A stretch of 64,000 bases of DNA from Ottowia sp. (GTDB taxonomy: Bacteria > Pseudomonadota > Gammaproteobacteria > Burkholderiales > Burkholderiaceae_C). This document shows, piece by piece, positions 9,115 through 18,513 of the stretch. The notes below the pieces were generated by a model. It saw only the letters and a list, made by a program, of their open reading frames with translations, did not search any database and had not been told where the DNA came from. The stretch covers positions 466,487 to 530,486 of the forward strand of contig NZ_JASGJP010000001.1 of the NCBI RefSeq assembly GCF_047601385.1, written 5' to 3'. Position 1 is the first letter of the stretch, and each line of letters opens with the position of its first letter. The position numbers were made by a program, and so were the translations under genes.

Positions 9115-9316
9115 CCCCCACGCTCCCCCGCCGCGCCCGGTCCGCTGCCCTCCGAGGGAGCTCCGGCCGCCTTGGGACCGGCCCGGCGGCGGCCGGAACG
9201 GCCTCATACCCTCTCGACGAAGCGCCCTGCGGGGCGCTTTTTTCATCTTGGGGCGGCCCGGCGATGAAAAGCCCCCTCGGGGGCAGCGGACCGGGCGCAG
9301 CGGGGGAGCGTGGGGG
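9115..9316. repeat. Pair of ~45-bp inverted REP-like repeats
   Basis: CCCCCACGCTCCCCCGCCGCGCCCGGTCCGCTGCCC near 9115 and its near-perfect reverse complement ending at 9316. Confidence 0.8.
9219..9244 (+). terminator. Rho-independent terminator
   Basis: GAAGCGCCC-TGCG-GGGCGCTTT followed by a T run. Confidence 0.8.
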
Positions 9317-9324
9317 CTATTTCC

Positions 9325-10335
9325 TCACCCCGCCGCGCCAACCCATGCCTGCCGGTGCCAGTCGGACGGCGACAGGCCGAAGCGCGCCTTGAACAGCTTG
9401 CTGAAGTCCGACTGGCTCGCGAACCCGCAGCGCCACGACAGCGCGCCCACGTGCAGCCTGCGGTCCTGCTCGATCAGCGCCCGCGCGCGCTGCAGGCGCA
9501 GCTCGCGCAGCGTGCCCATCACCGTCTGGCCCCGCTCGGCGAAAGCCTCGTACAGCCGCGAGCGCGAGCAGCCGGTGCCGCGCGCGATGGCGGCGACGTC
9601 CAGGCCGTGGCGGTGGACCTCGCGCTCCATCCAGCGCAGCGCCGCCGCGTAGCGGCCCGCGTGCAGGTCTTCGTGCACGTCCGGCAGGTCCACGGCCTCG
9701 CCCTGCCGCCCCAGGTTGCGCAGCGTCAGCAGGGCCAGGGCGCGCGTGGCGTCCAGCAGGCCCGCGTACTCCTGCGCGCTCACGCGGCCGGGCTGGCGCG
9801 CCAGCAGCCCCAGGTGGGCCAGCTGCGCGGCCAGCGCCGGGGCCAGCGCGCAGCGCCGCGGCGCCAGCAGCAGGTTGCCCGGCTCGCGCCCTAGCGCACC
9901 CAGCACCAGGCTGCGCGGCAGCGCCACGTAGGTCTGGCGCGCGCCCTCGCCCCAGCGGTAGCAGCCTTCCTGCCGGGGCGCGTACAGGCCCAGCATGCCC
10001 GCCGTGGCGTGCTGGTGCTCGCCCGGCGCGGCGTTCAGCCGCATCTCGCCGGCCTCCAGCAGCGACAGCACCACCATGTCCTCGCCCGGCGGCACATGCC
10101 TGGGGCTGGTGCGCATCTCGTAGGCGGTGGAGCGCTTGGTGCCGAAGAAGCAGTCCTCGCCGCGCAGCAGCGACCACGAGGCATCGAGCGCATCGCCCGG
10201 CGACAGGGGCTGCACGTCCACCCAGTTGTGCGCCACGTCGCGCCAGTAGTCCAGCCGGATCGACGGATCGACCTCGCGGGAGGACCAGTGCTCCGGCACG
10301 CAGGGCGGCGTTGGCGGTGGCGGGGTGGATCGCAT
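9325..10335 (-). CDS. AraC family regulator (FeaR-like N-domain plus HTH)
   Basis: C-terminal IARGTGCSRSRLYEAF...LRELRLQRARALI...CGFASQSDFSKLFKARFGLSP. Confidence 0.88.
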   Translation of the reverse strand: MRSTPPPPTPPCVPEHWSSREVDPSIRLDYWRDVAHNWVDVQPLSPGDALDASWSLLRGEDCFFGTKRSTAYEMRTSPRHVPPGEDMVVLSLLEAGEMRLNAAPGEHQHATAGMLGLYAPRQEGCYRWGEGARQTYVALPRSLVLGALGREPGNLLLAPRRCALAPALAAQLAHLGLLARQPGRVSAQEYAGLLDATRALALLTLRNLGRQGEAVDLPDVHEDLHAGRYAAALRWMEREVHRHGLDVAAIARGTGCSRSRLYEAFAERGQTVMGTLRELRLQRARALIEQDRRLHVGALSWRCGFASQSDFSKLFKARFGLSPSDWHRQAWVGAAG

Positions 10336-10458
10336 GGCGTGGGATTGTAGGGACGCGGGACGCATTCCCCACACCTGGGACGCCCGCACACAAGACCACG
10401 GTGCCGGCAGGGGCGATGGTAACTAAACTTTTCGGAAGCCGCGTCCGGGTCCGCTGGA

Positions 10459-10521
10459 TTAGAAGTGTTTTTGGCTCCCAGTGACCGTCATTCAAGCGCC
10501 AGCAGCTATCAAAAACATAGT
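10459..10521 (-). repeat. 62-bp element upstream of Lcl gene A
   Basis: Reverse orientation; GCTATCAAAAACATAGT centre. Confidence 0.75.
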
Positions 10522-10535
10522 TTCCAGATTCATCC

Positions 10536-12041
10536 ATGAAACCCATCCCGCACCTTGCCGCGCTGGCGCTGATGCTGGTTCTGAGCACGGCCCACGCGCA
10601 ACTGAACGACACCGGCCAGACCGCCTGCACCGACAGCGCGGGCGCGGCCATCGCCTGCGCCGATCCGGGCGACCACTCCGGGCAGGACGGTCGCTTTGGC
10701 CGCGACGCGCAGGCCGGCGGCGCGGCGTTCAGCTTCTCCTCGCTCGACGGCGGCTGTCTGCAAGACGGCATCACCGGCCTCATCTGGTCGGGCGAAACGC
10801 TGACCGGCCCCTGGGCCAGCTTCAGCGGCCTGGCCTACGACCGCTGCGGCATCGCCACCGGCTGGCGGCTGCCTACGCGGCGCGAGCTGCTGTCCATCGT
10901 GCACCACGGCGCCAGCCAGCCCGCCAGCGCTTTCCCCGGCACGCAAAGCGCGCCGTACTGGAGCAGCGACACGCAGGGCGGCAATGCCTGGGCGGTGGAC
11001 TTTGCCGATGGCGACACGAAGCAGATCGACCAGGCCGAAACCCACGCCGCCCGCCTGGTGGTGCGCCCCGCCAACCAGCCGCCCACCATCACCCTGGGCG
11101 CGAACATCGTGGTGCCGCAAGGCGACAAGCCCGGCCCGCGCACCTACCCCGCCTGGGCCACCGGCATCAGCCCCGGCCCTGCGCGCGAGGCGGGGCAGCA
11201 CCTGACGGCAACGGTGGAGCTGCTGCCCTTGCAACCCGGCGATCCCAAGGCGCTGGAGTTCGAGACACCGCCCGCCATCGACCCGGCCACGGGCGATTTG
11301 ACATTCACCCTGAAGCACCGCATCGCCAACTACGACGCCCAGGCCCGCCCCACCCATGACTATTGGGTCTCCTCCGCCGGGCTGGCGCGCCTGCGCGTCA
11401 CGCTGCAAGACGACGGCGGCACGGCAGGCGGCGGGCACGACAGCACCAGCGCCGACTTCACCGTTTTTCTCGACCCCGTGCCCAGCGTGTTCAGCCCCAA
11501 CATCAAGCACGCCTGGAAGCCCGCCTGCGTCCCCTTCACCATGCTCGCGATGGACCCGGACACCGACTGGGTCATCCCCGACGACTGGTACCACGGCGCG
11601 CCCTGGTGGCCGTACCCCACGTTCAAGTTCCTCACCTACCCGTCCCAGGGCTTCATCACCGACTACGTGTCGTTCCGCACCCCCGATGGGGACGAGGCCA
11701 TCCGCTTTGCCAGCGCACGCGGCAGCTTTGACTACGTGCTGCCCAAGACCGGCATGGTCAAAGTCGGCACCCAGGCCGCCAGCGCGCAGGCCGCCGTCAA
11801 GGCCGTCGTGCAAGACCCCCTGCCCGGCATCCAGGCCGTGATGGAGCCGCGCCCCGCGCACATCACCTGGATCGACGAGGACACCCCCGGCCTGAGCTTC
11901 AACTTCGCCATGACCTGGTGCTACGTGCCCTTCAGCAGCACCTTCACCGGTTCCGACACCTTCACCTACCAAGTCACCGACCCGGACGGCAACGTCAGCC
12001 AACCTGGGGTGGTCAGCATCGAAATCTTTGAGCTCAAGTGA
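10536..12041 (+). CDS. Secreted DUF1566 (Lcl) domain protein A with C-terminal Ig-like regions
   Basis: Signal peptide AHA-Q, LNDTGQTAC..GQDGRFGRD, GWRLPTRREL, YWSS, AWAVDF; C-terminal GSDTFTYQVTD. Confidence 0.8.
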   Translation: MKPIPHLAALALMLVLSTAHAQLNDTGQTACTDSAGAAIACADPGDHSGQDGRFGRDAQAGGAAFSFSSLDGGCLQDGITGLIWSGETLTGPWASFSGLAYDRCGIATGWRLPTRRELLSIVHHGASQPASAFPGTQSAPYWSSDTQGGNAWAVDFADGDTKQIDQAETHAARLVVRPANQPPTITLGANIVVPQGDKPGPRTYPAWATGISPGPAREAGQHLTATVELLPLQPGDPKALEFETPPAIDPATGDLTFTLKHRIANYDAQARPTHDYWVSSAGLARLRVTLQDDGGTAGGGHDSTSADFTVFLDPVPSVFSPNIKHAWKPACVPFTMLAMDPDTDWVIPDDWYHGAPWWPYPTFKFLTYPSQGFITDYVSFRTPDGDEAIRFASARGSFDYVLPKTGMVKVGTQAASAQAAVKAVVQDPLPGIQAVMEPRPAHITWIDEDTPGLSFNFAMTWCYVPFSSTFTGSDTFTYQVTDPDGNVSQPGVVSIEIFELK

Positions 12042-14569
12042 TGGCGATAACTATCAAAAACATAGCTGCTCGCGCCCGTCCAGCAGGCGCTACAGCCCCA
12101 AAATTCTTCAAACTCCTGCTGGCCTGCCTGCTGCCCTGGCTGTTCGCCAGCGCCGCCCTGGCCCAGCCCGTCACCGCCCAATCGCAGGCCGTGCAGACCG
12201 CCTTCAACCAGGTCGTCTTCGTCGCCCTGCAAGCGGCGGACGCCACGCCCGGCGGGCCGCATGCGCTGACCTACGCCATCACCAGCGGGCCGTCGCACGG
12301 CAGCTTCTTCGGCAACTCGCTCAACCTGCAAACCGGCACCTTCTCGTACCAGCCCGCGCCCGACTACTACGGCAGCGACAGCATCACCTTCACCGCCAGC
12401 AACGCCCACGGCACCTCGGCCCCGGCCACGGTCAGCATCACCGTGGCCGCGCCGCTGCCGCCGCTGGCGTATGACAACCAGCATTTCAGCGTGCCCTTCA
12501 ACACCACGCGCGACCTGCTCCTGGCCTATTCCAACGTCAACTTCAGCCTGACGCAGACCAACTACGCGCCCACGTTCGAGTTCGTCACCCCGCCCGCGCA
12601 CGGCAGCGCCACGTTCCACCTCAACGCCGCCACCTACACGCCCACCATCAACTACAGCGGGCCGGACAGCTTCACCTACCGCATCGTCGGGCGCTACGGC
12701 ACCTCGGCCACCGTCACCGCCACCATCGACGTGGCCGCCGCCGGGCTGCCCGTGGCGCAGCCGGGCCACCAGTTCGTGCCGCACGGCACGGCCACCGCCA
12801 TCCCCCTGGCGGCGCAGGACGGCAACCCCGGCGGTCCCTGGCCGCTGACCTACGCCGCCGCCGACCAGCCCGCGCACGGCGGCGTCACCGTCAGCGGCAG
12901 CACGGCCACTTACACACCCGCCAGCGGGTATTGGGGCGAAGACAGCTTTACCTACACCGCCACGTCGGCCAACGGCACATCGGCCCCCGCCGCCGTGCGC
13001 GTGCTGGTGGGCCAGCCCGTCACGCTGGGCGTGGCAGGCGGGCGCGGCGACACGGGCCAGATCGCCTGCACCGACAGCACGGGCGCGGCCCTGCTCTGCG
13101 CCGCGCCATCGGCCCACCCCGGCCAGGACGGCCGCTTTGGCCGCGACGCGCAGGCGGGCGCGGCGGCGTTCGACCTGGTGGCCGACAGCGGCTGCGTGCA
13201 GGACCGCGTGACCGGCCTCACCTGGTCGGACGAAACGCTGACCGGCCCCTGGGCCAGCTTCAACGGCATGGCCTACACCCGCTGCGGCATCGCCAGCGGC
13301 TGGCGGCTGCCCACGCGGCGCGAGCTGCTGACCACCGTGCACCACGGCGCCAGCCACCCCGCCAGCACGCTGCCCAACACCCAAAGCGCGCCGTACTGGA
13401 GCAGCGACGCGCAGGGCGCGAACGCCTGGGCGGTGGACTTCACCGACGGCAACACCACAAAGATCGCCCAGGCCGAAAGCCACGCCGCCCGCCTGGTGGC
13501 ACTGCCCGCCAACCAGCCGCCCACCATCACCCTGGGCGCGGCGGAAATCGTGCTGTCCAACAACGAAATGCCCGGCCCGCGCCGCTACCCCGGCTGGGCC
13601 ACCGGCATCAGCCCCGGCCCGGCGCGCGAGGCCGGGCAGCAGCTCATCGCCACCGTGCGCCTGCTGCCCGTGCCGGGCGAAAAGACGCTGACCTTCGACG
13701 TGCCCCCCGCCATCGACCCGGCCACCGGCGACCTGACCTTTACCGTGGAGCACCGCATCTACCCCAAAGGCCAGTTGCCCGTCTATGACCCGGACACCCC
13801 CCTGAACACACCCCCGGATCAATGGCCGGTGCGCGACGTTTTCTACTGGGCCTCCGCCGCCGGGCGCGTGCGCGTCGAAGTGACCCTGCAAGACGACGGC
13901 GGCACCGCAGGCGGCGGCGCGGACACCACCGTCCAGACCTTCGACATCGCCATCTCGCCCGTGCCCCTGGCCTTCGACATCGACATCAAGCACCCGTGGA
14001 AGGCCGCCTGCATCCCCGTCACCATGCACGCGCAGGACATCGACACCGACACCGAGGTCAGCGTCACCTACCCCCTGCGCTACGCGCCGCTGTTCCGCAT
14101 CAAGACGTACTCGAACGAAGGCTTCCTGACCGACTACGTAGCGCGCCGCACGCCCGACGGCGACGAGGCGATCCGCTTTGCCAGCGCACGCGGCAGCTTT
14201 GACTACGTGCTGCCCAAGACCGGCATGGTCAAAGTGGGCACGCAAGCCGCCGCCAGGGTCGTGCCCAGCCCCGCCCGCGCCGCCGCCCTGTCCACCAAAT
14301 CCGCCACGTCCACCGCATCCACCAGCGGCATCAGCGTGCCCCTGGGCGACACGGTGGACTCCGTACCCGACCACGTCGGCATCACCGGCAGCCGCGCGCC
14401 CGTGCCCGGCCCCGTCAGCCCCTGGGGCTTCTTCGCCGACACCCTCTGCTACGTGCCCTTCAGCAGCACCTTCGTCGGCTCTGACGTCTTCACCTACACG
14501 GTGGTGGACGTGGATGGCAACGAAAGCGCGCCCGCCAGCGTGAGCATTGAAATCTACGAGGTGAAATGA
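12038..14569 (+). CDS. Secreted protein B: three tandem Ig-like (Big_9/cadherin-like) repeats plus a paralogue of protein A
   Basis: Repeated PxHG..YxP..Y.G.DSFTY units, then a DUF1566 domain; ATGA coupling to gene A. Confidence 0.8.
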   Translation: MMAITIKNIAARARPAGATAPKFFKLLLACLLPWLFASAALAQPVTAQSQAVQTAFNQVVFVALQAADATPGGPHALTYAITSGPSHGSFFGNSLNLQTGTFSYQPAPDYYGSDSITFTASNAHGTSAPATVSITVAAPLPPLAYDNQHFSVPFNTTRDLLLAYSNVNFSLTQTNYAPTFEFVTPPAHGSATFHLNAATYTPTINYSGPDSFTYRIVGRYGTSATVTATIDVAAAGLPVAQPGHQFVPHGTATAIPLAAQDGNPGGPWPLTYAAADQPAHGGVTVSGSTATYTPASGYWGEDSFTYTATSANGTSAPAAVRVLVGQPVTLGVAGGRGDTGQIACTDSTGAALLCAAPSAHPGQDGRFGRDAQAGAAAFDLVADSGCVQDRVTGLTWSDETLTGPWASFNGMAYTRCGIASGWRLPTRRELLTTVHHGASHPASTLPNTQSAPYWSSDAQGANAWAVDFTDGNTTKIAQAESHAARLVALPANQPPTITLGAAEIVLSNNEMPGPRRYPGWATGISPGPAREAGQQLIATVRLLPVPGEKTLTFDVPPAIDPATGDLTFTVEHRIYPKGQLPVYDPDTPLNTPPDQWPVRDVFYWASAAGRVRVEVTLQDDGGTAGGGADTTVQTFDIAISPVPLAFDIDIKHPWKAACIPVTMHAQDIDTDTEVSVTYPLRYAPLFRIKTYSNEGFLTDYVARRTPDGDEAIRFASARGSFDYVLPKTGMVKVGTQAAARVVPSPARAAALSTKSATSTASTSGISVPLGDTVDSVPDHVGITGSRAPVPGPVSPWGFFADTLCYVPFSSTFVGSDVFTYTVVDVDGNESAPASVSIEIYEVK
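12050..12112 (+). repeat. 62-bp element encoding the N-terminus of Lcl gene B
   Basis: ACTAT-CAAAAAC-ATAGC-TGCTCGCGC...GCGCTACA-GCCC. Confidence 0.85.
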
Positions 14570-15561
14570 TGAGCGCTATCAAAAACAAAGCTGCCAGCGC
14601 TTGCCAGACGGGCGCTACAGGCCAAAAAGGCTTGAAACTTTTGCTGATCCCCGCAGCCCTCGCCGCCGTCGTTGCCCACGCCGAGCCCCTGCAATGGGAC
14701 ACCTGCGCCTGGGGCCAAACCGAATCGGGCAACGCCTGCACCGGCACGCCCGCCGCCCTCACCTGGCAGCAGGCCCTGCAAGCCGCGCAGCAGGCCAACG
14801 GCGCGGGCCACCAGGGCCACAGCGACTGGCGCGTGCCCAACCGCACCGAGCTGGAATCCACCGTCGATCTGGCCGCGCCGCAAGCGGGCGCGTACTGGTC
14901 CTCCACCAGCTACCACCCCGCCCCCGCCCAGGCATGGGGCGTGGACTTCGCCGACGGCAGCTCCAGCCCCGCCGCCAAGACCAGCGCGCAGGCCCTGCGC
15001 CTGGTGCGCGGCGGCGACGACTACCGCGCGCCCGGCCCCGCCACCACGCCGCCGCTGCCCCTGCCCAGCAACCCCGGCGAGACGGCGCAGGCCGCCGTGA
15101 CGGGCGGCGGCAGCACCTGCGGCTTTGCCAGCGCGGGCTTCATCAGCGCCGCCACGCTGCCCGCGCCGCCCGCCCACGTCACGCTGGCGGCGGACCCGTT
15201 CGACTTCGTGCTCGACGGCTGCACGCCCGGCAGCACGGTGCAGATCACCATCACCTACCCGCAGCCGCTGCCCAGCGGCGCGCAGTTCTGGAAGCACGGC
15301 CCGCGCCCCGGGCAGGCGGCGGGCTGGTACGCCTACCCCCATGCCGCCGTCAGCGGCAACACCGTGGTGCTCACGCTGACCGACGGCGCCCTGGGCGACG
15401 ACGACCTGGACGCCACCAACGGCCGCATCGTGGACGCGGGCGCGCCGGCGGTGATGGCCATGGCGGCCGGCGGTGTGGCGGCGATCCCCACGCTGTCGCA
15501 GTGGGGCATGCTGCTGCTGTCGGCCCTGCTGGGGCTGGTGGCGCTGCGCCGCAGGGCTTGA
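14566..15561 (+). CDS. DUF1566 plus choice-of-anchor-U-like domain with IPTL-CTERM sorting signal (protein C)
   Basis: DWRVPNRTEL/YWSS/AWGVDF; LTLTDGALGDDD; C-terminus IPTLSQWGMLLLSALLGLVALRRRA. Confidence 0.85.
   Translation: MMSAIKNKAASACQTGATGQKGLKLLLIPAALAAVVAHAEPLQWDTCAWGQTESGNACTGTPAALTWQQALQAAQQANGAGHQGHSDWRVPNRTELESTVDLAAPQAGAYWSSTSYHPAPAQAWGVDFADGSSSPAAKTSAQALRLVRGGDDYRAPGPATTPPLPLPSNPGETAQAAVTGGGSTCGFASAGFISAATLPAPPAHVTLAADPFDFVLDGCTPGSTVQITITYPQPLPSGAQFWKHGPRPGQAAGWYAYPHAAVSGNTVVLTLTDGALGDDDLDATNGRIVDAGAPAVMAMAAGGVAAIPTLSQWGMLLLSALLGLVALRRRA
14575..14637 (+). repeat. 62-bp element encoding the N-terminus of Lcl gene C
   Basis: GCTAT-CAAAAAC-AAAGC-TGCCAGCGC...GCGCTACA-GGCC-AAAAAGGCTTGAAA. 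Confidence 0.9.
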
Positions 15562-15639
15562 CCTGCGCCGGCAAGCCGGCGCCTAGGGTGCAGGGGCATC
15601 GTGGGCGTAGATGTCCCGGTAGAGCCGCAGCGCGGCCGC

Positions 15640-16070
15640 GCGCAGTTCATCCCTGGGCCGATCGGCGCGGCTTGTGAAAACAGCAGCGCGTTGAGCTCGC
15701 AGAAGCGCGCGTAAACGGCTGCGTGCGCACGATGCGGACAAGGCTCAGCCGAAGCGGGCCGCACCCCCAGCGAGGCCCGCACGGCACGTAGCCAGCCGGC
15801 ATCCAGATGCAGCATCTGGTAGCCCCACGCCGTGCCGCGCAAGGGGTTGCAGGCGTGCACGCGACCGGCCGGCACGAGGATGACGGCACCCGGGTGCAGC
15901 AGCACGGGGCCGTCGCCCGCGTCGGCGAACACGCTGGTGCCTTCATCGACCGCGCCGATGGAAAACGTGGGATGGCTGTGCAGCCGGCAGCAGGCCCGGC
16001 TGCGGCAGGCGCGCCGGCTTTCGGCATACGGCAGCACGGGGTCGCGCCAGAACCGGGCGGTGCCATCCAT
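15640..16070 (-). pseudogene. Truncated AraC-family regulator (ligand-binding cupin only, no HTH)
   Basis: FWRDPVLPYAESRRAC...HSHPTFSIGAVDEG...VHACNP; reading then degenerates into the antisense of gene C. The 3' boundary is approximate. Confidence 0.65.
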
Positions 16071-16081
16071 GCATCTTTTCG

Positions 16082-16142
16082 ACTATGTTTTCAATAGCGC
16101 CTTGCGTTTGTTCGGCGCCCGCTGGCAGCCTAAAGCACCGCG
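16082..16142 (+). repeat. 62-bp element, degenerate
   Basis: ACTAT-GTTTTCA-ATAGC, 28 nt, then AGCC. Confidence 0.65.
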
Positions 16143-16149
16143 ATCACGT

Positions 16150-17019
16150 CTACGCCTTCGGGTAGTCGTCGTACAGCCCGCGCCCGTTCTTGCGCCCCAG
16201 GCGCCCGTCGGCCAGCAGTTGCCGCAGCAGCACGCGCGGCCCTTCCGGCAGGCCGGCGCGCTTCTGGGCATAGTTCTCCTCGATGTCCAGCACCACGTCC
16301 AGCCCCACCAGATCCATCAGCCGGCAGGGGCCCGCCGCCATGCCGGTGGCCTGGGTGTAGATGGCATCCACCTCGGCCGGCGTGGCCACGCCCTCGGCCA
16401 CCACGGCCAGCGTCTCGCGCTTGATGGCGGCCCAGATGCGGTTGAAGATGAAGCCCGTGCTCTCGCGCCGCACCACGTAGGGCGTCAGGCCGTAGCGCGG
16501 CAGCAGTTCGGCCAGCAGCGGGATGATGGCCGGGTCGGTCTGGCCGCAGGACATCAGCTCCACCGGGGGCATCTCCGGCGGCTGAAGGAAGTGGGTGTTC
16601 AGCAGGCGCGCCGGGTTGCGCACGCTGTCCGAGAACTCGCTGGAGGCGTAGGACGAGGAGTTGCTGGCCAGGATGGCGTCGGGCTCGGCCAGCGCATCGA
16701 CCTGGGCGAAGATTTCCCTCTTCAGCGCCAGCTGCTCGGGCACCGATTCGAACACCAGCCACGCGCCCTTCAGCGCGTCGGCCAGGTTGTCCACGGCGAC
16801 GATGCGGCCGGCGGTGCTGCCGGGCAGCTTGGCAAGCATGGCGGGCAGCTGCTCGCGCGCCCAGGCCACGCCGGCGTCGCGCGTGGCGGCGCTGCGGGCG
16901 TACAGGCGCACCTCGGCGCCGCGCGTGGCCATCATCAGCGCGATGCGGCGGCCCAGGGTGCCGGCGCCCAGCACGGCGATGGGGCGGGTGTCGATGCGGT
17001 CGGGAAGGGTAAAACTCAA
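16150..17019 (-). CDS. 3-hydroxyacyl-CoA dehydrogenase family protein
   Basis: GAGTLG Rossmann motif, ESVPE, LASNSSS, THF, GFIFNR; probable TTG start with GGAG RBS. Confidence 0.88.
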   Translation of the reverse strand: MSFTLPDRIDTRPIAVLGAGTLGRRIALMMATRGAEVRLYARSAATRDAGVAWAREQLPAMLAKLPGSTAGRIVAVDNLADALKGAWLVFESVPEQLALKREIFAQVDALAEPDAILASNSSSYASSEFSDSVRNPARLLNTHFLQPPEMPPVELMSCGQTDPAIIPLLAELLPRYGLTPYVVRRESTGFIFNRIWAAIKRETLAVVAEGVATPAEVDAIYTQATGMAAGPCRLMDLVGLDVVLDIEENYAQKRAGLPEGPRVLLRQLLADGRLGRKNGRGLYDDYPKA

Positions 17020-17040
17020 GGCATGTCTCCAGGGGTGGTT

Positions 17041-17104
17041 ACTCTTATATTCATAGCTGCTCGCGCTTTCTGCAAGCGCGCTACAGGCCAAAAACACTTA
17101 AAAA
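17041..17104 (+). repeat. 62-bp element containing the dnaB stop codon
   Basis: ATAGC-TGCTCGCGCT...GCGCTACA-GGCC-AAAAACACTTAAAA. Confidence 0.9.
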
Positions 17105-18513
17105 TCATCACTGGCGCCGACGGCCAGACTCTCGAAGCGCGTCAGCGGCTTGATGAAGGCGAGCTTGACGGTGCCGGTGGGCCCGTTGCGCTGCTTGCCG
17201 ATGATGATCTCGGCCACGCCGGGCTCGCGCGAGTCCTTGTTGTAGTAGTCGTCGCGGTAGATGAACATGATGATATCGGCGTCCTGCTCGATGGCGCCGG
17301 ACTCGCGCAGGTCGCTCATCATGGGCCGCTTGTCGGTGCGCTGCTCCACGCTGCGGTTGAGCTGCGAGAGCGCGATCACCGGGCATTGCAGCTCCTTGGC
17401 CAGCGCCTTCAAGCCGCGCGATATCTCGCCCAGCTCGGTGGCGCGGTTCTCGTCGCCGCTGCTGCTGCCGCTCATCAGCTGCAGGTAGTCCACCACGATC
17501 AGGCCCAGCTTGCCGCACTGGCGCGCCAGCCGGCGCGCGTTGGCGCGCAGCTCGCTGGGCGTGAGGCCGGGCGTCTCGTCGATGTGCAAGCTGACGTTGC
17601 GCAGGCGCTCGATGGCCTCGGTCAGGCGCGGCCACTCCTCGTCGGTGAGCTTGCCGGTGCGCAGGTGGCTCTGATCGATGCGCCCGATGGAGCCGACGAT
17701 GCGCACCGCCAGCTGCGAGGCGCCCATTTCCATCGAGAACACGGCCACCGGCAGCCCTTCGTTCAGCGCCGCGTGCTCGGCGATGTTGATGGCGAAGGCG
17801 GTCTTGCCCATCGACGGGCGCGCGGCCAGCACCACCAGGTCGCCGGCTTGCAGGCCGGCGGTCATGCGGTCGAGGTCGTAGAAGCCCGTCGGCACGCCGG
17901 TGACGTCGTTCGGGTTGTCGGCCATCTCCTGCACGCGGTCGAGCAGCTGCACCACCAGGCTGTCCATGGCCTGGAAGCCCTGCTTCATGCGCGAGCCTTC
18001 CTCGCCGATGTGGAAGATCTTGGCCTCGGCTTCGTCCAGGATCTTGTCCACCGCGCGGCCCTGCGGGTTGAAGGCGCTGGTGGCGATCTCGTCGCTGGCG
18101 CTGACCAGCTTGCGCAGCACCGAGCGCTCGCGCACGATCTCGGCGTAGCGGCGGATGTTGCTGGCGCTGGGCACGTACTGCGCCAGCGAGTTCAGGTAGG
18201 CCAGCCCGCCCGCGTCCTCGGCCTTGCCCTGGCGCTGCAGTTCCTCGTGGACGGTGATGACGTCGGCCGGCTTGGTCTCGTTGACGAGCTTGCCGACGGC
18301 GGCGTAGACCAGGCGGTGTTCGTAGCGGTAGAAGTCGCTGTCGATCAGCAGGTCGCCCACGCGGTCCCAGGCGCCGTTGTCCAGCAGCAGGCCGCCGAGC
18401 ACGCTGGACTCGGCCTCGATCGAATGCGGCGGAATGCGCAGCTGCGCCACCTGGCGGTCGGTCGGCAGGTCGTCGCCGAGGTCGGCGTAGCTGGGGGGGA
18501 AAACGGAGGACAT
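17098..18513 (-). CDS. dnaB: Replicative DNA helicase
   Basis: PPHSIEAE, AARPSMGKTA, VVDYLQLM, DLRESGAIEQDAD, KQRNGP. Confidence 0.98.
   Translation of the reverse strand: MSSVFPPSYADLGDDLPTDRQVAQLRIPPHSIEAESSVLGGLLLDNGAWDRVGDLLIDSDFYRYEHRLVYAAVGKLVNETKPADVITVHEELQRQGKAEDAGGLAYLNSLAQYVPSASNIRRYAEIVRERSVLRKLVSASDEIATSAFNPQGRAVDKILDEAEAKIFHIGEEGSRMKQGFQAMDSLVVQLLDRVQEMADNPNDVTGVPTGFYDLDRMTAGLQAGDLVVLAARPSMGKTAFAINIAEHAALNEGLPVAVFSMEMGASQLAVRIVGSIGRIDQSHLRTGKLTDEEWPRLTEAIERLRNVSLHIDETPGLTPSELRANARRLARQCGKLGLIVVDYLQLMSGSSSGDENRATELGEISRGLKALAKELQCPVIALSQLNRSVEQRTDKRPMMSDLRESGAIEQDADIIMFIYRDDYYNKDSREPGVAEIIIGKQRNGPTGTVKLAFIKPLTRFESLAVGASDDF

What the first reader, a model, noticed from the sequence alone, without database searches (positions are those of the whole stretch)
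9325..15561. AraC-linked three-gene Lcl/Ig/IPTL-CTERM operon: candidate multi-subunit surface adhesin with one anchor subunit
Seen: three translationally coupled secreted proteins (ATGA overlaps), all with a DUF1566/Lcl domain. A and B are paralogues, B adds three Ig-like repeats, and only C carries IPTL-CTERM; a divergent AraC gene sits upstream. Established: IPTL-CTERM is a predicted C-terminal sorting signal, and DUF1566 is a CLec-like fold found in adhesins. Inference: C anchors, and A and B are exported partners forming an inducible ligand-binding surface structure.
Basis: partly seen in the sequence, partly recalled or inferred. Interest (0 to 1): 0.62.

Follow-up and report, generated by a model that had tools for sequence, protein, structure and literature searches.

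The report
Split two-part lectin-like surface protein operon
Three adjacent genes for exported lectin-like proteins are real, and they are a "split" form of a widespread two-domain unit, with only the last protein carrying the sorting tail. This makes a docked surface complex likely, though nobody has tested it.

Summary
Genes A (10536-12041), B (12038-14569) and C (14566-15561) each encode a signal peptide and one Lcl_C/DUF1566 domain. A and B are 60% identical paralogues, and B has three extra Big_9 repeats. Only C has choice-of-anchor U plus IPTL-CTERM. A divergent AraC gene lies upstream. The genome holds exosortase H and 28 IPTL-CTERM proteins.

The Lcl_C domains fall into two subtypes.
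- **Type-1 (A, B):** a conserved LNDTGQ...GQDGRFGRD leader precedes the domain.
- **Type-2 (C):** the domain starts right after the signal peptide.

Evidence that the two subtypes work together:
- A type-2 gene lies next to every full-length A/B homologue examined (10 contexts).
- Among 40 genomes searched, 40 of 45 listed type-1 hits have a type-2 hit under 4 kb downstream on the same strand. Only 2 have one upstream.
- Many proteins fuse type-1 and type-2 in that order in one chain, some ending in an IPTL-like tail.
- AlphaFold2 models one such fusion as a single rigid body.

I conclude that A and B probably dock on C through Lcl_C pairing, and that XrtH sorts C. Complex formation, surface location and ligand remain inferred. 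The operon is accessory (1 of 36 congeners), and the AraC link holds only in close relatives.

The parts
9325..10389 (-). AraC-family regulator (354 aa), divergent from gene A
   Evidence: HTH_18 62.6 bits and AraC_binding_2 41.5 bits. It is 81% identical to the AraC next to the G030 operon and 68% identical to the AraC next to the Melaminivora A/B genes. A terminator-like hairpin lies at 9284-9271.
10459..10520 (-). 62-bp repeat element (inverted copy) in the 146-bp AraC/A intergenic region
   Evidence: Core CTATCAAAAACATAG at 10506. The arm GCTGCTGGCGCTTG lies on the minus strand, by reading.
10536..12041 (+). Gene A. Signal peptide aa 1-21; conserved type-1 leader LNDTGQ...GQDGRFGRDA aa 22-63 (10599-10724); Lcl_C aa 74-175 (10755-11060); three cadherin/Ig-like beta-sandwiches aa 180-501 (11073-12038)
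   Evidence: AlphaFold2 model m78dbcf6d6389 has pLDDT 73.7. Foldseek matches the Lcl_C part to Lcl-CTD 8q4e (TM 0.59, rmsd 2.6) and the rest to the SraP binding region and cadherins. Invariant leader residues are listed.
12038..14569 (+). Gene B. Long signal peptide; three Big_9/tandem-95 repeats aa ~50-325 (12185-13012); type-1 leader aa 336-377 (13043-13168); Lcl_C aa 385-487 (13190-13498); cadherin-like region aa 492-843 (13511-14566)
   Evidence: B is 93% identical to the B-type protein of metagenome locus L026.
12051..12121 (+). 62-bp repeat element inside the 5' end of B, read in frame as ...TIKNIAARARPAGATAPKFFK
   Evidence: Family D6.
14576..14646 (+). 62-bp repeat element inside the 5' end of C, read in frame as ...AIKNKAASACQTGATGQKGLK
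   Evidence: Family D6. The same extension occurs in the C orthologues of G030, L026 and L019.
14566..15561 (+). Gene C. Signal peptide; type-2 Lcl_C aa 40-148 (14683-15009); choice-of-anchor U aa 202-296 (15169-15453); IPTL-CTERM aa 305-330 (15478-15555)
   Evidence: C is 84% identical to L026 C. It matches the second half of fusion protein P0071 best.
15665..16070 (-). Remnant of a second AraC-type gene: cupin/AraC_binding domain only, with no HTH. The open frame then runs antisense into C
   Evidence: AraC_binding 48 bits at aa 28-125 of ORF 15336-16070, and no HTH hit.

Best explanation
This is an accessory operon of an Ottowia-like betaproteobacterium. It encodes the split form of a widespread two-domain DUF1566 (Lcl_C) unit.

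**The parts.** A and B are Sec-exported proteins. Each has a type-1 Lcl_C domain, preceded by the conserved LNDTGQ...GQDGRFGRD leader, joined to cadherin/Ig-like stalks. C carries the partner type-2 Lcl_C domain, a choice-of-anchor U beta-sandwich and an IPTL-CTERM tail.

**Proposed mechanism.**
1. C is held in the inner membrane by its C-terminal helix.
2. A and/or B dock on C in the periplasm through a type-1:type-2 Lcl_C contact.
3. Exosortase H cuts at IPTL and passes C, with its bound partners, to the cell surface or exopolysaccharide matrix.
4. There the Ig-like stalks and lectin-like heads bind a glycan or another cell. This would serve adhesion or floc formation.

**Regulation.** The divergent AraC regulator controls expression in this lineage.

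**Shown:** domain content, paralogy, presence of XrtH, conserved adjacency and order, and natural fusions.

**Inferred:** docking, the export route, surface location, the ligand, and AraC control.
For: - **Domains:**
- **Sorting system complete in this genome:** XrtH scores 206 bits against a cut-off of 86, and there are 28 IPTL-CTERM hits.
- **Second locus in the same genome:** a minimal pair, a 247-aa type-1 protein followed by a type-2 protein with IPTL-CTERM.
- **Adjacency:** all 10 contexts of full-length A/B homologues hold an adjacent type-2 gene.
- **Order:** among 40 genomes searched, 40 of 45 listed type-1-like hits have a full-length type-2 hit under 4 kb downstream on the same strand. 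Two have one upstream and none on the opposite strand.
- **Fusions:** type-1 and type-2 occur in one chain in G100 and in 16 of 18 database proteins aligned.
- **Reciprocal matches to fusion P0071:** A matches the first half best (117 against 45 bits), and C the second half (86 against 45 bits).
- **Fusion model:** the AlphaFold2 model of P0071 has pTM 0.61 although only 62% of its residues are ordered. This implies that the two domains form one rigid body.
- **Homologue behaviour:** the solved homologue Lcl-CTD is a stable homo-oligomer (a trimer), and its authors suggest that DUF1566 may promote oligomerisation or bind carbohydrate (PMC11162425).
- **Anchor tracks sortase:** XrtH is absent exactly in the two genomes whose type-2 protein has another C-terminal module.
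- **Gene spacing:** tight spacing or overlaps occur in relatives that lack the repeat element.
Against: - No interaction, localisation or expression data exist.
- No multimer prediction was possible.
- The fusion inference rests on pTM alone. I could not see PAE or coordinates.
- The number of A/B-type genes per C varies from 1 to 3, so no fixed complex is implied.
- One type-2 partner (L025, Rhodanobacteraceae) has no anchor although its genome has XrtH.
- The acceptor and export route of any exosortase substrate are unknown.
- My type-1 and type-2 calls in the 40-genome survey use match extent and score as a proxy. I checked them by sequence in only about a dozen loci.
- Neither A's nor C's Lcl_C domain has been shown to bind anything.
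Confidence: 0.5

Rival explanations
1. Co-regulated but independent paralogues. A, B and C are separate secreted or surface lectin-like proteins that share an operon because they arose by duplication and serve the same process. They have no physical contact. A and B are released (for example by type II secretion, as for Legionella Lcl), and only C is cell-bound.
For: All three have their own signal peptides. Two GspD secretins are present. Lcl itself is a T2SS substrate that acts as a homotrimer (PMC11162425). The number of A/B-type genes per locus varies. One C-type partner lacks any anchor.
Against: Duplication alone does not explain three things. Two distinct Lcl_C subtypes keep a fixed order in at least 27 of the 40 genomes searched. 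They are repeatedly fused in that order. The fusion is modelled as one rigid body.
Confidence: 0.3
2. Cassette array. The three genes are unrelated cargo units separated by 62-bp elements, as another first reader proposed for 10459-17104, and were brought together by element-mediated capture and not by shared function.
For: Element copies sit upstream of A and at both junctions. The A-B-C block, at 84-93% protein identity, lies in a different genomic context in L026. The operon is present in only 1 of 36 congeners.
Against: The same type-1/type-2 pairing and tight spacing occur in lineages whose junctions lack the element (L021, L028). The genes are homologous to each other. The elements lie inside the reading frames of B and C, not between them.
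Confidence: 0.05
3. Diversity-generating retroelement target. The DUF1566/C-type-lectin-like domains are variable proteins diversified by a reverse transcriptase.
For: DUF1566 is common among DGR target proteins (for example PMC4159848 and PMC5758913, listed).
Against: The only reverse transcriptase in the genome lies about 0.5 Mb away. No template/variable repeat pair occurs in 9200-17200 apart from the A/B paralogy.
Confidence: 0.02

Closest known systems
IPTL-CTERM / exosortase H (XrtH) sorting system (TIGR04174/PF18203 and TIGR04177; curated in silico)
   Same: C has the full tripartite tail (IPTLSQWG, hydrophobic helix, RRRA) at its extreme C-terminus and an N-terminal signal peptide. The genome has XrtH and 28 such proteins.
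   Different: The system has no experimental study in the paper library: zero papers mention IPTL-CTERM. Nothing in its description, as I recall it, covers untagged partner proteins encoded upstream of the tagged one.
Legionella pneumophila Lcl (collagen-like adhesin; Lcl-CTD structures 8Q4E/8QK8; PMC11162425)
   Same: The same Pfam domain (Lcl_C) is present. The A model superposes on Lcl-CTD (TM 0.59, rmsd 2.6 A, 26% identity). Both are exported proteins with a lectin-like head, and Lcl-CTD oligomerises.
   Different: A, B and C have no collagen-like repeats and no N-terminal amphipathic anchor helix. Lcl is a homotrimer from one gene, whereas here two Lcl_C subtypes sit on different genes. 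Conservation of the GAG-binding lysines of Lcl was not examined.
Fused type-1/type-2 DUF1566 proteins (e.g. P0070-P0072, P0076-P0079; annotated only as 'DUF1566 domain-containing protein')
   Same: They show the same two domain subtypes in the same N-to-C order as the gene order A/B then C. Some end in an IPTL-like CTERM tail.
   Different: They are single chains, most lack the A/B-specific cadherin-like C-terminal region, and none is characterised.
PEP-CTERM/exosortase surface and matrix proteins of floc-forming Burkholderiales (e.g. Aquincola, PMC9850573)
   Same: They belong to the same sortase superfamily and have the same kind of C-terminal signal. The habitat is similar: most homologues here come from wastewater or activated-sludge metagenomes. 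They play a role in aggregation.
   Different: The motif (PEP versus IPTL) and the exosortase subtype differ. The described PEP-CTERM proteins are single gene products without docked partners.
Tandem-95 / Big_9 cadherin-like repeat adhesins (NF012211, PF17963)
   Same: B passes the NF012211 cut-off (91.8 against 90 bits). The C-terminal regions of A and B fold like cadherin/SraP modules.
   Different: Those adhesins are usually giant single proteins exported by type I secretion. A and B are short, Sec-dependent and headed by a lectin-like domain.

Membership tests
IPTL-CTERM sorting-signal proteins (TIGR04174 / PF18203) | HMM match above the curated cut-off at the extreme C-terminus: motif, transmembrane helix, basic cluster | tested here: met
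   C: PF18203 38.2 bits (cut-off 20.8) and TIGR04174 33.8 bits (cut-off 20.5), at aa 305-330 of 331. A and B have no hit.
IPTL-CTERM sorting-signal proteins (TIGR04174 / PF18203) | Cognate exosortase H encoded in the same genome | tested here: met
   TIGR04177 scores 206.4 bits (cut-off 86) at G000:C1:356285-356755.
IPTL-CTERM sorting-signal proteins (TIGR04174 / PF18203) | Multiple tagged paralogues per genome | tested here: met
   28 hits in the own genome.
IPTL-CTERM sorting-signal proteins (TIGR04174 / PF18203) | Cleavage at IPTL and transfer to a surface acceptor | not testable with these tools
   This needs proteomics or mutants. No paper in the library mentions IPTL-CTERM.
Lcl_C / DUF1566 (PF07603) | HMM match above the gathering score | tested here: met
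   A 64.1, B 63.2 and C 76.7 bits, against a cut-off of 34.9.
Lcl_C / DUF1566 (PF07603) | C-type-lectin-like fold of Lcl-CTD | tested here: met
   The A model against 8q4e_A gives TM 0.59 and rmsd 2.6 A over 105 columns. The profile hits the 8q4e sequence at E = 8.5e-4.
Lcl_C / DUF1566 (PF07603) | Oligomerisation through the domain, as in the Lcl-CTD trimer | tested here: inconclusive
   The support is indirect only: natural type-1/type-2 fusions, and a fusion model with pTM 0.61 and 62% ordered residues. No multimer tool was available.
Lcl collagen-like adhesin of Legionella | Collagen-like GXY repeat region and N-terminal amphipathic helix | tested here: not met
   No such regions appear in the A, B or C sequences and there are no collagen hits.
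Tandem-95 repeat / Big_9 adhesins (NF012211) | HMM match above the cut-off | tested here: met
   B scores 91.8 bits against a cut-off of 90. A scores only 21.1 bits and is not a member.
choice-of-anchor U domain (NF041766) | HMM match above the cut-off, next to a C-terminal sorting signal | tested here: met
   C aa 202-296 scores 89.5 bits (cut-off 32) and is followed directly by IPTL-CTERM.
DGR variable proteins | Nearby reverse transcriptase and template repeat | tested here: not met
   The sole RVT_1 hit is at C1:3965973-3966626, about 0.5 Mb away. No template-like repeat was found.

The most novel reading that the evidence does not exclude
The type-1 and type-2 DUF1566 domains form an obligate heteromeric lectin head. 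This head can be encoded either as one chain or as two. In the split form, the exosortase-sorted type-2 subunit acts as a universal dock, letting a cell display interchangeable untagged type-1 proteins (A, B and others). That would be a modular "one tagged carrier, several passengers" surface-display principle for exosortase systems, not described so far.
Probability: 0.3. Interest if true: 0.7.

Novelty: new variant of a known kind. Interest (0 to 1): 0.5.

Why it matters
Exosortase systems are common in environmental and wastewater bacteria, but they are almost unstudied, and XrtH/IPTL-CTERM has no experimental literature that I could find. If untagged proteins reach the surface by docking on a tagged partner, then counts of tagged proteins underestimate the exosortase-dependent surface proteome. 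DUF1566, a very widespread orphan domain, would also gain a concrete role as a hetero-oligomerisation and lectin module. The split and fused forms give a ready test system: co-express two small domains and check whether they bind. The practical interest is in adhesion and floc formation in activated sludge. If the genes turn out to be merely co-regulated paralogues, the locus is ordinary.

Tried and rejected
- **Modelling the G100 fusion.** I tried to model it with unpaired rows for each half. MAFFT placed all type-2 segments on the first domain (alignments A3 and A4), so I dropped this. I used database fusion proteins instead (A5).
- **DGR reading.** Rejected.
- **Promoter and terminator scan.** It found no sigma-70-like promoter and no plus-strand terminator inside A-C. 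This is uninformative for a 70% GC genome.
- **Position of the L026 flanking adhesin in the own genome.** The aim was to define an empty site. Only the shared C-terminal module matched, so no empty site could be shown.
- **Search of the Melaminivora record for XrtH.** The record is not held.
- **PDB sequence search with C alone.** It gave only the weak Lcl-CTD hit.
- **Pfam PF26707.** It is listed in precomputed annotations of some fusion proteins, but it is absent from the local Pfam copy, so I could not identify it.
- **Other loci.** The 40-genome survey therefore had to be parsed from the printed, truncated table, and its counts are lower bounds.
Full report
**1. What is there**

The window is about 70% GC. 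It lies at 466487-530486 of a complete 4.0-Mb genome. Same-genus genomes include MAGs labelled Ottowia sp. and Rubrivivax sp., so the organism is an Ottowia-like member of the Comamonadaceae.

Four genes match the finding:
- An AraC-family gene at 9325-10389 (-).
- A at 10536-12041 (+, 501 aa).
- B at 12038-14569 (+, 843 aa).
- C at 14566-15561 (+, 331 aa).

- Lcl_C occurs in all three proteins, at 63-77 bits against a cut-off of 34.9.
- B has three Big_9/tandem-95 repeats.
- Only C has choice-of-anchor U and IPTL-CTERM.
- The regulator has HTH_18 plus AraC_binding_2.

A aligns with the C-terminal 506 residues of B at 60% identity. A and C share only the Lcl_C core (38% over 69 residues). Each protein has a Sec-type signal peptide ending in AxA.

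**2. Corrections to the observation**

Only the B/C junction is ATGA. The A/B junction is GTGA, or TGATG.

Both junctions and the region upstream of A contain a 62-bp repeat. Its 16-nt core occurs 197 times in the genome with up to 3 mismatches. In B and C the repeat lies inside the reading frame and encodes an N-terminal extension (...AIKN.A......GA.GQKGLK) ahead of the hydrophobic core of the signal peptide.

The same extension is seen in orthologues from G030, L026 and L019, and in several database homologues. B has no later in-frame start that would keep its signal peptide. C could start at TTG 14632.

Relatives that lack the repeat still have overlaps or gaps of 1-10 nt between these genes (L021, L028). 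Tight packing is therefore a property of the gene set, not of the repeat.

**3. The sorting system is complete**

The tail of C reads IPTLSQWG, then a hydrophobic helix, then RRRA. The genome encodes exosortase H (206 bits, cut-off 86) and 28 IPTL-CTERM proteins. C is therefore a predicted XrtH substrate.

No paper in the library mentions IPTL-CTERM. Earlier notes of this scan on other genomes likewise describe XrtH systems as curated but untested. For related exosortases there is genetic evidence of roles in exporting PEP-CTERM proteins and in aggregation (PMC12188702, PMC9850573).

**4. Structure**

An AlphaFold2 model of A (43-sequence alignment, pLDDT 73.7) shows a lectin-like head. The head superposes on the crystal structure of the Legionella Lcl C-terminal domain (8q4e; TM 0.59, rmsd 2.6 A). 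It is followed by three beta-sandwich domains that resemble cadherins and the SraP binding region.

Residues 22-63 are highly conserved. D25, T26, G27, C31 and C41 are nearly invariant, and Q50, D51, G55, R56, D57 and A58 are invariant. This stretch is nevertheless modelled with low confidence.

Lcl-CTD is a stable trimer. Its authors propose that DUF1566 may serve carbohydrate recognition and/or trimer formation (PMC11162425).

**5. Two Lcl_C subtypes that travel together**

Type-1 (A, B) has the LNDTGQ...GQDGRFGRDA leader before the domain. Type-2 (C) starts directly after the signal peptide (TVTD..TGL.WD.C.WGQ...DWRVPNRTELES).

The genome has just five Lcl_C domains. They are A, B, C and a second locus at C1:1628487-1626791. 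That locus holds a 247-aa type-1 protein followed by a type-2 protein with IPTL-CTERM.

Full-length A/B homologues are rare. There are about 70 clusters in the 5.8-billion-protein set, roughly eight of 185,579 species representatives, and 1 of 36 congeners. In all ten contexts examined, a type-2 gene is adjacent.

| Context | Gene arrangement |
|---|---|
| Window | AraC, then A, B, C |
| G030 | AraC, AraC, one A/B-like gene, C (ATGA overlap) |
| L026 | A, B, C in the same order; 84-93% identity; different flanks; no AraC |
| L021 | three A-like genes, then C |
| L028 | one B-like and two A-like genes, then C |
| L019 | C, then two A-like genes |
| L024 | B-like gene, then a C-like gene with a variant tail |
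| L025 | A-like gene, then a C-like gene with no tail |
| L022 (Melaminivora) | A/B-like genes, then a C-like gene with a long alternative C-terminal domain |
| L023 (Acidovorax soli) | A/B-like gene, then a C-like gene with a long alternative C-terminal domain |

The pairing is much wider than the A/B family. I searched a type-2 profile against 40 genomes that hold type-1 domains. Of the 45 partial, type-1-like hits listed, 40 have a full-length type-2 hit less than 4 kb downstream on the same strand. Two have one upstream and none on the opposite strand. At least 27 genomes show the pairing, spanning Burkholderiales, Gallionellaceae, Thiobaca and others.

The table was truncated, and the subtype calls are by match extent and score. 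I checked them by sequence at about a dozen loci (for example G033).

**6. Fusions**

A Comamonadaceae MAG (G100) encodes proteins with type-1 and type-2 domains joined by a linker of about 10 residues. In one protein the pair occurs twice.

Sixteen of 18 database proteins that I aligned have the same fused layout. Three end in an IPTL-like tail. A matches the first half of fusion P0071 best (117 against 45 bits), and C the second half (86 against 45 bits).

The AlphaFold2 model of P0071 has pLDDT 75-95 across both domains. Its pTM is 0.61 although only 62% of its residues are ordered. I read this as the two domains being placed as one rigid body. I could not inspect PAE or coordinates, so this is indirect.

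**7. The anchor tracks the sortase**

XrtH is present in 9 of 11 genomes carrying the pair. It is absent in exactly the two genomes (A. soli and G100) whose type-2 proteins carry the long alternative C-terminal domain instead of IPTL-CTERM. One exception runs the other way: the L025 genome has XrtH, but its C-like protein has no tail.

**8. Regulation and mobility**

The AraC protein is 81% identical to the one at the G030 operon and 68% identical to the one beside the Melaminivora genes. Other loci have LuxR/GerE regulators, a two-component system, LysR, or nothing nearby. The AraC link is therefore specific to this lineage.

Three observations point to an accessory, mobile block:
- The operon is absent from 35 of 36 congeners.
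- The A-B-C block sits in another context in L026.
- A truncated AraC-type gene (cupin domain only) abuts the 3' end of C.

**9. Interpretation**

The best reading is a split two-domain lectin head. C is the XrtH-sorted carrier, and A and B dock on it through type-1:type-2 Lcl_C contact and project cadherin-like stalks. The likely role is adhesion or aggregation.

Two GspD secretins exist, so independent type II secretion of A and B, as for Legionella Lcl, remains a live rival. I put about 0.5 on the docking model and 0.3 on co-regulated independent proteins. The cassette and DGR readings get little.

**10. Verdict**

- All parts belong to known families. The split/fused two-subtype DUF1566 unit and the tagged-carrier idea appear undescribed in the papers I could search.
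- I rate the finding as a new variant of a known kind, of moderate interest.

Noticed in passing
window 10459-10520 (-), 12051-12121 (+), 14576-14646 (+), 16082-16140, 17042-17112; also 56621 and 62002: A 62-bp repeat (core CTATCAAAAACATAG plus a GC-rich hairpin plus CCAAAAA...) has 197 core matches in the genome. At B and C, and in orthologues and some distant homologues, it lies in frame and supplies the start codon and the positively charged n-region of the signal peptide (...AIKN.A...GQKGLK).
   Followed up: partly
window 15665-16070 (-): An AraC-type gene is reduced to its cupin/ligand-binding half, with no HTH, and ends against the 3' end of gene C. It may mark the edge of an insertion or deletion that brought in the operon.
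   Followed up: partly
own genome C1:1628487-1626791 (-), outside the window: A second, minimal DUF1566 pair: a 247-aa secreted type-1 protein followed by a 315-aa type-2 protein with IPTL-CTERM.
   Followed up: yes
own genome C1:533697-542130, 3-12 kb beyond the window's right end: A dense cluster of at least ten IPTL-CTERM hits lies within about 8.5 kb. In the related metagenome locus L026, the A-B-C block sits among IPTL-CTERM genes and not next to AraC.
   Followed up: no
L022:10959-13466, L023:8475-10547, L109:24-4043: Type-2 proteins in genomes without XrtH share an uncharacterised C-terminal domain of about 450 residues with no Pfam match (...VVGPGGDGATIVLPG...QITVNGQ...). It appears to replace the IPTL-CTERM tail and is a candidate alternative attachment module.
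   Followed up: partly
alignment A1, C-termini of A/B family proteins: All family members end within 1-3 residues of a conserved final strand (...VSIEI[FY]E[VLI]K). The chain end is unusually fixed for a secreted multi-domain protein.
   Followed up: no
window 10607-11044 vs 13048-13482: The Lcl_C-coding parts of A and B are 84-87% identical at the DNA level, against 72-80% for the remainder. This would fit gene conversion or stronger constraint on the head domain.
   Followed up: no
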